Positions 18,097 through 45,378 are shown, counted from the first letter of the stretch. The stretch: 64,000 nucleotides of DNA from an uncultured Croceitalea sp. (GCF_947499565.1 NZ_CANMOV010000006.1); one strand, 5' to 3'. The notes: a model not told the origin generated them from the letters alone. Numbers and translations are program-made.

Positions 18097-18208
18097 GGGA
18101 TTTCTCAATCGTCGCCGAGCCTGTCCTTAGCAAAGTCGAAGGGCTCCTCATGTCGAAATGACTAAAAAAGAACACGATTTTCATTTCTAAGTGAATATGA
18201 GAAATCCC
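18097..18208. repeat. Orphan family A REP doublet (same unit as those flanking the GIY-YIG gene at 25.4 kb)
   Basis: Perfect 11-bp terminal inverted repeat GGGATTTCTCA...TGAGAAATCCC; the left half nearly matches 25259-25325. Confidence 0.88.
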
Positions 18209-25108: not shown

Positions 25109-25376
25109 GGATTTCTCAATCGTTGCCGAGCCTGTCCTGAGCGCAGTTGAAGGGCAACTCATGTCGAAATGACTAAAACAGAACTCACAGTCATTTCGAA
25201 CCGAATACAATGAGTGTGAGAAATCTAAAAACTTAACCTAAACACTCTTATTGGTCTTGGATTTCTCAATCGTCGCCGAGCCTGTCCTGAGCGTAGTCGA
25301 AGGGCTCCTCATGTCGAAATGACTAAAATAGAACCCAATGTCATTTCGAACCGAATGTAATGAGCGTGAGAAATCT
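25109..25376. repeat. Two family A REP doublets (118 bp each, 150-bp period) downstream of GIY-YIG-1
   Basis: 25109-25226 and 25259-25376: GGATTTCTCA...TCGAAATGAC-16 nt-GTCATTTCGA...TGAGAAATCT. Confidence 0.92.
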
Positions 25377-25674
25377 AAATGACGTCGTTATTTAAAAATT
25401 CCCACTCTGGATTAAAAGAAGAAATCAAGTTATCCTTTTTCTCTCTTCTCCATTTTTTCAATTCCTTTTCTCTAAGAATTGCTGACTCTATGGATTCAAA
25501 ACCTTCATAGTAGACAAGATGATAACAGTTGTATTTGCCGGCAAATGATTTTCTAGCATTTTGACTATCAAAATAATGTTGGGAAAGTCTTCGCTGGATA
25601 TCGTTTGTTACGCCAATATAAAGTGTGGTTTTGTTTTCATTAGTTACTATGTAGACAAAGTAGTTAGATAACAT
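25375..25674 (-). CDS. Small stand-alone GIY-YIG nuclease (GIY-YIG_unchar_3-like), copy 1
   Basis: FVY...LYIGVTND..RRL.QH, REKELKKWRREKK, FNPEW; catalytic Y/R/E/N appear intact; the TAG stop overlaps the repeat end. Confidence 0.92.
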   Translation of the reverse strand: MLSNYFVYIVTNENKTTLYIGVTNDIQRRLSQHYFDSQNARKSFAGKYNCYHLVYYEGFESIESAILREKELKKWRREKKDNLISSFNPEWEFLNNDVI

Positions 25675-25694
25675 CTTTTAAAAATAGTTTATTT

Positions 25695-25813
25695 AGATTT
25701 CTCAATCGTTGCCGAGCCTGTCCTGGGACGCAGTTGAAGAGCAACTCATGTCGAAATGACTAAAATGGAACCCGCAGTCATTTCGAACCGAATACTAGGA
25801 GCGTGAGAAATCT
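25695..25813. repeat. Family A REP doublet upstream of GIY-YIG-1
   Basis: AGATTTCTCA...TCGAAATGAC...GTCATTTCGA...TGAGAAATCT, 119 bp. Confidence 0.92.
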
Positions 25814-45008: not shown

Positions 45009-45032
45009 GTGTTCCCGAGTAATCGGGAATCT
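45009..45032 (+). repeat. Family F REP hairpin downstream of GIY-YIG-2
   Basis: GTG-TTCCCGA-gtaa-TCGGGAA-TCT. Confidence 0.8.
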
Positions 45033-45044
45033 ATTTTAAGATTA

Positions 45045-45332
45045 TTATTTCAAAATTTCATATAAATCCGTCCAATCGGGATTCGTTTTTTCTATTAATT
45101 CAATTTTCCAAGCCCTGTTCCATTTCTTCATTTGTTTCTCTTTCAATCTAGCTTCTCCTTCTGTTTTAAATTGTTCAAAGTAAACTACTTTATCCAAATT
45201 ATACCTCGCCGAGAATGTTGTTGGATGAGCTTTAGTTTTATGTTGATATATTCTTGTTTTTAATCTTTTAGTTTTTCCGATATATAGAACACCCCGCTTT
45301 TTATTTGTAATTATGTAAACATAGTGTTTCAA
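45045..45332 (-). CDS. Small stand-alone GIY-YIG nuclease (GIY-YIG_unchar_3-like), copy 2
   Basis: YVY...LYIGKT..LKTRIYQH, KEKQMKKWNRAWKIELIEKTNPDW; TTG start; inserted inside the paa cluster. Confidence 0.92.
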   Translation of the reverse strand: MKHYVYIITNKKRGVLYIGKTKRLKTRIYQHKTKAHPTTFSARYNLDKVVYFEQFKTEGEARLKEKQMKKWNRAWKIELIEKTNPDWTDLYEILK

Positions 45333-45354
45333 AATTTCAATTCTTATTTTAAAC

Positions 45355-45378
45355 GGCTCCCGATGACTCGGGAGTCAC
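45355..45378 (-). repeat. Family F REP hairpin upstream of GIY-YIG-2, inverted relative to 45009
   Basis: The minus strand reads GTGA-CTCCCGA-gtca-TCGGGAG-CC. Confidence 0.8.

What the first reader, a model, noticed from the sequence alone, without database searches (positions are those of the whole stretch)
25109..25813. Candidate REP-associated GIY-YIG nuclease system, locus 1 (RAYT/REP-like architecture with a different nuclease fold)
Seen: a 99-aa GIY-YIG gene with apparently intact catalytic residues is bracketed by three near-identical 118-119-bp palindromic doublets. The innermost ends form a perfect 14-bp inverted repeat (TGAGAAATCTAAAT 25367-25380 / ATTTAGATTTCTCA 25691-25704), and the gene's TAG stop is partly supplied by the repeat. 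A fourth copy lies 7 kb away without the gene (18097-18208). Each half-unit is a GTC tag followed by ATTTC...GAAAT. Known: RAYT transposases are flanked by inverted REPs that spread as non-autonomous doublets (REPINs), and I recall CGTC-tagged REP families being reported without a dedicated transposase (needs a literature check). Inference: this small GIY-YIG family may be the cognate enzyme that cuts or propagates GTC-tagged REPs.
Basis: partly seen in the sequence, partly recalled or inferred. Interest (0 to 1): 0.88.

Follow-up and report, generated by a model that had tools for sequence, protein, structure and literature searches.

The report
Ssn nuclease flanked by hairpin repeats
A tiny GIY-YIG nuclease gene sits between copies of the GTC-tagged hairpin repeat it most likely recognises, but this gene-plus-repeat pairing was published in 2025 as the Ssn family of single-stranded-DNA nucleases, so this is a new Bacteroidota example and not a new kind of system.

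Summary
A 99-aa single-domain GIY-YIG ORF (25375-25674, minus strand) is bracketed by three copies of a 116-117-nt repeat that are 87-92% identical. A fourth copy lies at 18099-18206. The 14-bp inverted repeat is perfect, and the TAG stop overlaps the repeat end.

The core interpretation is right but not new. Chenal et al. (Nat Commun 2025, PMC11893778) showed that small cd10448 GIY-YIG proteins ("Ssn") bind GTC-tagged hairpin repeats (NTS/SRM) as single-stranded DNA. They cut just upstream of the tag, and most ssn genes are flanked by these repeats. That paper also draws the IS200/RAYT-REP analogy.

The window's protein is 49% identical to rhizobial homologues whose flanks match the published SRM motif. 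In 76 of 80 Bacteroidota homologue loci a GTC-ATTTC...GAAAT-C box lies within 150 bp of the gene.

Three points appear incremental:
- This Bacteroidota box dialect is missed by the published search motif (0 of 80 loci).
- The 117-nt units are head-to-head box dimers with a second hairpin type nested inside.
- Gene-less tail-to-tail doublets (GAGAAATC-TA-GATTTCTC) look like the locus minus its gene.

Copy number is low, at about 20-30 boxes. Whether the enzyme propagates the repeats remains untested.

The parts
25375..25674 (-). ssn-type gene: a 99-aa single-domain GIY-YIG nuclease. Y8, Y19 and E69 align with the residues mutated in N. meningitidis SsnA (Y6, Y17, E64).
   Evidence: ORF. Pfam PF01541 at E 3.2e-18. 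Alignment. 49% identity and E 9e-29 to a S. meliloti homologue flanked by canonical SRMs.
25340..25375 (+). Box abutting the gene's stop codon: GTCATTTCGAACCGAATGTAATGAGCGTGAGAAATC. This is the right half of repeat copy 2. Its tail C is the first base of the reverse-complement TAG stop.
   Evidence: C6:58156-58191.
25696..25760 (-). Box abutting the gene's start, read on the minus strand as GTCATTTCGACATGAG...CGATTGAGAAATC. This is the left half of repeat copy 3 and carries a nested second-type hairpin in its loop. Its tail points at the gene, giving the SRM(+)-gene-SRM(-) arrangement.
25260..25375 (+). Repeat copy 2: a head-to-head dimer of two boxes (minus-strand box 25260-25323, plus-strand box 25340-25375) with a 16-nt central spacer. 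It folds as one long hairpin.
   Evidence: DNA fold z-scores of -4.1 and -4.3.
25110..25225 (+). Repeat copy 1, a head-to-head box dimer lying directly after the HIT-family gene.
25696..25812 (+). Repeat copy 3, a head-to-head box dimer upstream of the ssn start.
18099..18206 (+). Repeat copy 4, with no adjacent gene and a degenerate right half.
25286..25303 (+). Nested second-type hairpin CCTGAGCGTAGTCGAAGG inside the loop of the left box. The same module is at 25136-25153 and in copies 3 and 4. It is absent from the short-form box at the same site in relative G010.
25367..25380 (.). Left arm of the perfect 14-bp inverted repeat, TGAGAAATCTAAAT. The right arm is at 25691-25704. With the gene removed, the arms would form the palindrome seen in gene-less doublets elsewhere (GAGAAATC-TA-GATTTCTC).
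25675..25712 (-). Inferred promoter region. In gene orientation it reads CGATTGAGAAATCTAAATAAACTATTTTTAAAAG-ATG, with a TAnnTTTA motif 4 nt before the ATG and a TTG inside the box tail. Similar TAnnTTTA motifs precede the ATG in many homologues. This is inference only.
   Evidence: Sequence and the upstream flanks listed. The Bacteroidota promoter consensus is from my own knowledge and was not tested.

Best explanation
Window 25110-25812 is an SRM-ssn-SRM locus. It holds a Bacteroidota member of the Ssn family of single-domain GIY-YIG nucleases, bracketed by its cognate GTC-tagged hairpin repeats.

By homology to characterised SsnA proteins, the 99-aa enzyme should do the following:
- Recognise the box GTC-ATTTC-GA...GA-GAAAT-C only when that strand is single-stranded and folded.
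- Nick a few nucleotides 5' of the GTC tag.
- Ignore double-stranded DNA, RNA and the complementary strand.

The 117-nt 'doublets' are head-to-head dimers of two such boxes. The left box carries a second hairpin type nested in its loop. The gene lies exactly between the tails of two inverted boxes.

Shown here: the family membership by sequence, the repeat anatomy, the association across 80 homologues, and presence/absence differences between congeners.

Inferred: the cleavage chemistry and specificity (from homologues) and the cellular role. The role could be restriction of incoming or exposed ssDNA, as in Neisseria, and/or maintenance of the repeats.
For: - **Domain and size:** GIY-YIG domain in a 99-aa protein.
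- **Catalytic residues:** Y8, Y19 and E69 are invariant in an alignment with homologues whose numbering matches Nm SsnA Y6/Y17/E64.
- **Homology to canonical members:** 49% identity, E 9e-29, to a S. meliloti homologue. That gene and two other rhizobial genes are flanked by boxes matching the published SRM motif, (+) upstream and (-) downstream.
- **Same arrangement here:** tails of both flanking boxes point at the gene.
- **Association across homologues:** 76 of 80 Bacteroidota loci have a GTC-A....-loop-complement-C box within 150 bp, and 65 have one on both sides. Box density is 10.2 per kb of nearby non-coding DNA against 1.9 per kb further away. Only 16% of other intergenic regions in the same loci hold a box.
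- **Dispersed copies:** the exact box pattern occurs 20 times in this genome and in 37 of 151 Bacteroidota genomes. A reversed-pattern control gives 0 everywhere.
- **Hairpin support:** the stem covaries among genomes (ATTTC/GAAAT, ATGTC/GACAT, ATCTC/GAGAT, ATCCC/GGGAT, ATGCT/AGCAT).
- **Paralogue-specific pairs:** two further GIY-YIG paralogues in the genome are each flanked (+,-) by their own hairpin type.
- **Published biochemistry:** PMC11893778.
Against: - The published SRM search motif finds 1 hit in this genome against about 3 expected by chance. It finds none within 500 bp of any of the 80 Bacteroidota homologues. The cognate site here is therefore a different dialect, and specificity is extrapolated.
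- The half-boxes next to this particular gene have long loops and do not fold stably on their own as DNA (z -0.9 and +0.7). Only the whole 121-nt unit folds well.
- CDD cd10448 assignment and direct comparison with N. meningitidis SsnA could not be run.
- No Bacteroidota Ssn has been assayed, and the paper's main text does not mention Bacteroidota.
- Copy number is low, at about 20-30 boxes.
Confidence: 0.85

Rival explanations
1. RAYT/REPIN-like or homing-like element. The nuclease is not only the reader of the boxes but the engine that spreads them and itself. Nicks next to boxes in exposed ssDNA would trigger repair that copies box doublets, with or without the gene, into new sites. This extends the best explanation and does not exclude it.
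For: - The gene sits exactly at the centre of a tail-to-tail box pair. Gene-less doublets GAGAAATC-TA-GATTTCTC and close variants occur elsewhere in the genome and look like the locus minus the gene.
- In two same-family genomes most listed boxes are (+,-) pairs about 75 nt apart.
- The gene with its box ends lies at different loci in congeners. It is absent from the HIT site in G010, G011 and G006.
- In G004 it lies in a 1.4-kb segment missing from G000.
- One hairpin type is nested in the loop of another.
- The paper raises the same hypothesis.
Against: - GIY-YIG enzymes hydrolyse DNA and are not known to make the covalent intermediates that transposases use (my own knowledge).
- No target-site duplication or clean insertion boundary was found.
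- The protein tree largely follows taxonomy and synteny is kept within genera. That fits vertical inheritance better than frequent transfer.
- Copy numbers are low here.
- Stem type does not resolve with protein clades inside Bacteroidota.
Confidence: 0.3
2. Chance neighbourhood. The repeats are generic intergenic palindromes such as terminators or REP-like fillers, and the GIY-YIG gene simply landed in a repeat-rich hot spot.
For: - The intergenic space after the HIT gene holds different repeat families in other congeners.
- This genome has several repeat families.
Against: - 95% of 80 homologues across many families have a box within 150 bp, against 16% of neighbouring intergenic regions.
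- The stop codon repeatedly overlaps the box end.
- Proteobacterial homologues show the same arrangement with a different box sequence.
Confidence: 0.03
3. The 117-nt units are structured non-coding RNAs or cis-regulatory RNA elements unrelated to the nuclease.
For: - The unit folds well as RNA on both strands (z -3.5 and -2.9).
- All four copies share one orientation.
Against: - No Rfam family matches, even at a permissive threshold.
- Both strands fold equally well, as expected for a DNA palindrome.
- The conserved feature across the phylum is the short box, in either orientation relative to genes, not the 117-nt unit.
- SsnA does not bind RNA (PMC11893778).
Confidence: 0.03

Closest known systems
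Ssn family (SsnA of Neisseria meningitidis; CDD cd10448 GIY-YIG_unchar_3) with NTS/SRM hairpin repeats. Chenal et al., Nat Commun 2025, PMC11893778.
   Same: - A single-domain GIY-YIG protein of about 95-100 aa with the same catalytic residues.
- The gene is bracketed by inverted hairpin repeats that have a GTC tag, a stem starting AT and a C after the stem.
- The same repeats are dispersed in the genome.
- Paralogue- and lineage-specific repeat dialects exist.
   Different: - The box here is GTC-ATTTC-GA-(7-30 nt)-GA-GAAAT-C, with a short stem, tandem G-A positions and a variable loop. The published degenerate SRM motif does not match it.
- There are tens of copies, not hundreds.
- The boxes adjoining this gene are embedded in 117-nt head-to-head dimers with a nested second hairpin.
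- No biochemical data exist for any Bacteroidota member.
CGTC-tagged REPs (Di Nocera et al., BMC Genomics 2013, PMC3733652).
   Same: - A (C/T)GTC tag at one end.
- A stem beginning AT.
- Occurrence as inverted dimers.
- Presence in Bacteroidetes.
- Described as lacking a dedicated transposase.
   Different: - Those families have 8-9-bp stems, 4-5-nt loops, a CCA tail and high copy number.
- Here the stem is 5 bp plus G-A pairs, loops are long and variable, and copy number is low.
RAYT/REPIN systems (Nunvar 2010; Bertels and Rainey 2011).
   Same: - A single gene flanked by inverted copies of a hairpin repeat.
- The repeat also exists as gene-less inverted doublets.
- Inheritance is largely vertical.
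   Different: - The enzyme is a hydrolytic GIY-YIG nuclease, not an HUH/Y1 transposase.
- The tag is GTC, not GTAG.
- Mobilisation has not been shown.
UPF0213 / YhbQ-type small GIY-YIG proteins (PDB 1zg2, 1ywl).
   Same: A stand-alone GIY-YIG domain of about 100 aa.
   Different: Only a weak match (E 4e-5, 27 bits). A third paralogue in this genome (C1:668158) looks closer to this type, yet it too is flanked by GTC-tagged hairpins.

Membership tests
Ssn (cd10448) site-specific ssDNA nucleases | Single-domain GIY-YIG protein of roughly 90-105 aa with no extra DNA-binding domain. | tested here: met
   99-aa ORF. PF01541 covers residues 4-80.
Ssn (cd10448) site-specific ssDNA nucleases | Catalytic residues equivalent to Nm SsnA Y6, Y17 and E64. 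| tested here: met
   Y8, Y19 and E69 are invariant in the alignment with rhizobial 94-aa homologues that carry Y6, Y17 and E64. The equivalence to the Nm protein itself rests on matching length and numbering, not on its sequence.
Ssn (cd10448) site-specific ssDNA nucleases | Assignment to CDD cd10448, or E below 1e-10 to N. meningitidis SsnA. | not testable with these tools
   No CDD search was available and the Nm sequence was not to hand. The paper's supplements are not held.
Ssn (cd10448) site-specific ssDNA nucleases | Clear homology to proteins whose genes are flanked by canonical published SRMs. | tested here: met
   49% identity and E 9e-29 to the S. meliloti protein. The flanks of three rhizobial genes match the published motif.
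Ssn (cd10448) site-specific ssDNA nucleases | Gene flanked on both sides by inverted GTC-tagged hairpin repeats. | tested here: met
   Boxes at 25340-25375 (+) and 25696-25760 (-). 65 of 80 homologue loci are flanked on both sides.
Ssn (cd10448) site-specific ssDNA nucleases | Flanking repeats fit the published degenerate SRM motif HGTCWYN(0-2)YYVSBRHN(0-5)WNVSBRGN(0-2)RNCYNB. | tested here: not met
   1 hit in the genome against about 3 expected. 0 of 80 Bacteroidota loci match. The motif is a search tool built from 29 genomes and not a definition, so this marks a new dialect and does not exclude membership.
Ssn (cd10448) site-specific ssDNA nucleases | Binds and cuts only single-stranded DNA, upstream of the tag. 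| not testable with these tools
   Needs purified protein and oligonucleotide assays.
RAYT/REPIN | HUH/Y1 (IS200/IS605-type) transposase. | tested here: not met
   The only domain found is GIY-YIG.
RAYT/REPIN | Gene flanked by inverted repeats that also occur as gene-less inverted doublets. | tested here: met
   Tail-to-tail doublets at C1:566551, C5:116300, C2:385615 and C5:3464. (+,-) pairs in G075 and G079.
RAYT/REPIN | GTAG tag on the repeat. | tested here: not met
   The tag is GTC.
CGTC-tagged REPs | CGTC/TGTC tag followed by a stem starting AT. | tested here: met
   TGTCAT... and AGTCAT....
CGTC-tagged REPs | 8-9-bp stem, 4-5-nt loop and high copy number. | tested here: not met
   A 5-bp stem plus G-A positions, loops of 7-30 nt, and about 20-30 copies.
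GIY-YIG homing endonucleases (I-TevI, Seg type) | GIY-YIG domain joined to a separate DNA-binding domain, cutting double-stranded targets. | tested here: not met
   The protein is a bare 99-aa domain. Cleavage of dsDNA was not testable.

The most novel reading that the evidence does not exclude
Ssn nucleases are the missing engine of GTC-tagged hairpin repeats. Nicking beside boxes in exposed single strands would drive repair-mediated copying of tail-to-tail doublets, with or without the gene. Under this reading the locus is a hydrolase-driven counterpart of RAYT/REPIN, and nested hairpins record past insertions into hairpin loops.
Probability: 0.3. Interest if true: 0.75.

Novelty: new member of a known kind. 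Interest (0 to 1): 0.3.

Why it matters
The central idea is that a small GIY-YIG nuclease is the cognate partner of GTC-tagged palindromic repeats. That idea was established experimentally in 2025, so this locus does not open a new field.

It still adds several things:
- The pairing holds across Bacteroidota, with a box dialect that the published search motif misses completely. Published association figures therefore probably undercount this clade.
- One genome can carry three paralogue/hairpin pairs, with one hairpin type nested inside another.
- Gene-less doublets look like the locus with the gene removed.

These features make Flavobacteriaceae a convenient place to test two open questions. 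One is how a 99-aa protein reads different hairpins. The other is whether Ssn actually spreads its repeats.

Tried and rejected
- **Rfam:** gathering and permissive thresholds gave nothing relevant.
- **Published SRM motif:** it fails on this genome and on all 80 Bacteroidota loci, although it works on rhizobial loci. I rejected it as a detector here.
- **Looser 6-nt stem detector:** it mostly picked up pairing between neighbouring boxes, so I dropped it.
- **Co-phylogeny of stem type and protein:** the tree separates the Bacteroidota clade (ATTTC) from the rhizobial clade plus the window's second paralogue (ATCCY and TCCCGA types). Inside Bacteroidota the stem labels are not clustered more than chance for the minor types, and 101 alignment columns resolve little.
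- **Clean empty site:** G010 keeps one short-form box at the HIT site and has unrelated sequence in place of the rest. The direction of the event cannot be read.
- **Target-site duplications:** none are consistent around the four units.
- **PDB sequence search:** it found only weak UPF0213 matches.
- **Distant homologues:** The search for homologous proteins returned only close Flavobacteriaceae relatives and did not reach Proteobacteria. The plasmid tblastn did.
- The genome search closed, before I could cross-tabulate box counts against ssn presence in the same 151 genomes. The fetch from genomes closed, before I could read the G079 and G075 doublets.

Full report
**1. Observation**

The region reads as described. 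ORF 25375-25674 on the minus strand encodes 99 aa and matches Pfam GIY-YIG PF01541 at E 3.2e-18 over residues 4-80.

Three copies of a 116-117-nt unit lie at 25110-25225, 25260-25375 and 25696-25812. A fourth lies at 18099-18206. All are on the plus strand. A 16-nt core occurs four times against 0.1 expected.

The arms 25367-25380 and 25691-25704 form a perfect 14-bp inverted repeat. The stop codon is the reverse complement of CTA at 25375-25377. Its C is the last base of GAGAAATC.

Two corrections apply. The copies are 87-92% identical to each other. The whole 3.9-Mb assembly has only these four full-length units.

**2. Anatomy**

Each unit is a head-to-head dimer of two boxes of the form GTC-ATTTC-GA...GA-GAAAT-C. 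One box is on the minus strand (for example 25260-25323) and one on the plus strand (25340-25375). A 16-nt spacer separates the two GTC heads.

The left box carries a second hairpin, CCTGAGCGTAGTCGAAGG, in its loop. [quoted passage not shown]

The whole unit folds well as DNA on both strands (z -4.1 and -4.3). The two long-loop halves on their own do not (z -0.9 and +0.7).

The gene lies between the tails of two inverted boxes.

Elsewhere in the genome there are shorter boxes with 7-30-nt loops. The strict pattern GTCATTTCGA-N(4-34)-GAGAAATC gives 20 hits, against 0 for the reversed control.

Some boxes form gene-less tail-to-tail doublets such as GAGAAATC-TA-GATTTCTC (C1:566551 and C5:116300). 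These look like the ssn locus with the gene removed.

**3. Relatives**

A scan of genome contigs found 518 relatives, and the best 80 were kept. These are 55-85% identical and nearly all come from Bacteroidota: Flavobacteriaceae, Sphingobacteriaceae, Hymenobacteraceae, Cyclobacteriaceae, Chitinophagaceae, Prolixibacteraceae and Bacteroidales.

Reading their flanks showed the same box, or covarying variants, directly next to the start and stop. The variants are ATGTC/GACAT, ATCTC/GAGAT, ATCCC/GGGAT and ATGCT/AGCAT. The stop codon often overlaps a box end, as TAG|ATTTCTC or TA|GTCATTTCGA.

| Measure | Result |
|---|---|
| Loci with a box within 150 bp of the gene | 76 of 80 |
| Loci with a box on both sides | 65 of 80 |
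| Boxes lying within 250 bp of the gene | 334 of 560 |
| Box density in nearby non-coding DNA | 10.2 per kb |
| Box density in non-coding DNA more than 600 bp away | 1.9 per kb |
| Other intergenic regions in the same loci holding a box | 16% |

The exact box pattern occurs in 37 of 151 sampled Bacteroidota genomes, with zero hits for the reversed control.

**4. What it is**

A literature search found that this pairing is published. Chenal et al. (Nat Commun 2025, PMC11893778) define the Ssn family, which is nearly synonymous with CDD cd10448 GIY-YIG_unchar_3. Their main findings are:

- N. meningitidis SsnA (94 aa) binds the hairpin repeat NTS (CGTCATTCCCGCGMAVGCGGGAATCYRG) only as single-stranded DNA.
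- It cuts a few nucleotides upstream of the repeat.
- It does not act on dsDNA, RNA or the reverse strand.
- Y6A, Y17A and E64A abolish cutting.
- Homologues from three other species cut their own repeats.
- 71% of homologues have such a motif (SRM) nearby, and 42% have one on both sides.
- The authors note that NTS-ssnA-NTS resembles an IS and compare it with IS200/IS605 and REP/BIME.

Di Nocera et al. 2013 (PMC3733652) had described CGTC/TGTC-tagged REPs whose stems begin with AT. These occur mostly as head-to-head dimers, are present in Bacteroidetes, and 'lack a dedicated transposase'.

**5. Membership**

I could not run CDD or obtain the Nm sequence, because the paper's supplements are not held.

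As a substitute I ran tblastn against plasmids. This found rhizobial homologues at 45-49% identity. Three of their loci carry boxes that match the published SRM motif exactly, for example CGTCATCCTCGGGCTTGACCCGAGGATCCAT. The boxes lie (+) upstream and (-) downstream of the gene.

The window's protein aligns to the S. meliloti protein at 49% identity and E 9e-29. The window's second paralogue (45045-45332) aligns at 51% and E 2e-33.

Y8, Y19 and E69 are invariant and correspond to Y6, Y17 and E64 of the 94-aa rhizobial proteins.

One listed feature fails. The published degenerate motif gives 1 hit in this genome against about 3 expected, and none near any of the 80 Bacteroidota genes. I read this as a different box dialect, because the motif is a search tool built from 29 genomes. 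It does mean that specificity here is extrapolated.

**6. More than one pair in one genome**

| Paralogue | Flanking hairpin type | Copies in genome |
|---|---|---|
| 25375-25674 | GTC-ATTTC-GA...GA-GAAAT-C | about 20-30 boxes |
| 45045-45332 | GTG-TTCCCGA-GTAA-TCGGGAA-TC and GTGA-CTCCCGA-GTCA-TCGGGAG-CC (DNA fold z -4.4 and -4.1) | only these two |
| G000 C1:668158 | TGTCAnnCTGAGCYTGTCGAAGnn, with covarying stems, flanking the gene (+,-) | about 27 |

The hairpin nested inside the 117-nt units is of the third type.

**7. Mobility**

The evidence is suggestive only.

- G010 has the HIT gene and the downstream gene about 100 bp apart, with one short-form box and no ssn. G011 and G006 have another repeat family there.
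- G004 carries a 79%-identical ssn copy at another locus, again between box ends. It has a single in-frame TAA at codon 27.
- That G004 copy lies in a 1.4-kb segment absent from the corresponding G000 site.
- Against frequent movement, the protein tree largely follows taxonomy and flanking genes are shared within genera.
- No target-site duplications were seen.

**8. Verdict**

This is a new Bacteroidota member of the Ssn/SRM kind. It has a box dialect, a composite repeat architecture and a low copy number that differ from the published examples.

This prevented a genome-level cross-tabulation of boxes against ssn, and a reading of the doublets in G075 and G079.

Noticed in passing
window 45013-45376 (gene 45045-45332, minus strand): A second Ssn-type paralogue of 95 aa, 39% identical to the first, lies between a hydratase-like gene and a large paaZ-like gene. 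It is flanked by its own inverted hairpins, TTCCCGA-GTAA-TCGGGAA and CTCCCGA-GTCA-TCGGGAG, which occur nowhere else in the genome. In the tree it groups with rhizobial homologues, on a long branch.
   Followed up: partly
G000 C1:668125-669018 (outside the window): A third GIY-YIG paralogue, closer to the UPF0213 type, is flanked (+,-) by a third hairpin family, TGTCAnnCTGAGCYTGTCGAAGnn. That family has about 27 copies with covarying stems. The open frame runs without a stop through three repeat-encoded SLRRAQTD-like stretches into a FabZ-like hotdog domain, 286 codons in all.
   Followed up: partly
G000 C2:662003-662251 (outside the window): A fourth, more distant GIY-YIG ORF of 82 codons is wedged into a tRNA gene region. 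An apparent duplicated 5' tRNA fragment lies upstream and the rest of a tRNA lies downstream.
   Followed up: no
window 25136-25153, 25286-25303, and the equivalent positions in the copies at 25696-25812 and 18099-18206: A hairpin of the third family type is nested in the apical loop of the left box of every 117-nt unit. The short-form box at the same site in relative G010 has GTCGC-TTT-GCAAC instead. This suggests insertion of one hairpin into the loop of another.
   Followed up: partly
L013 and L014 (G011, G006), the intergenic space after the HIT gene; also G000 C5:15300-15440: A different repeat family of about 110 nt (…GTCAGTTCGAATGG…CTCGAACTGACGG…) occupies the same post-HIT intergenic site in two congeners. 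A related sequence lies next to a half-box in G000.
   Followed up: no
L011 4185-4484 (G004): The congener's ssn copy has one in-frame TAA (Gln codon 27 to stop) in an otherwise intact 99-codon frame. This could be a recent pseudogene or a sequencing error.
   Followed up: yes
window 25675-25712 and the upstream flanks of the loci: A TAnnTTTA motif lies 4-10 nt before the ATG in many homologues, and a TTG lies within the box tail. This would fit a Bacteroidota-type promoter giving a nearly leaderless mRNA, with the box forming part of the promoter.
   Followed up: no
G154:C1:2188293-2189537 and 2210296-2211104: One Bacteroidota genome has boxes in same-strand tandem arrays with periods of about 112 nt and about 200-330 nt. 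This arrangement is unlike the inverted doublets seen elsewhere.
   Followed up: no
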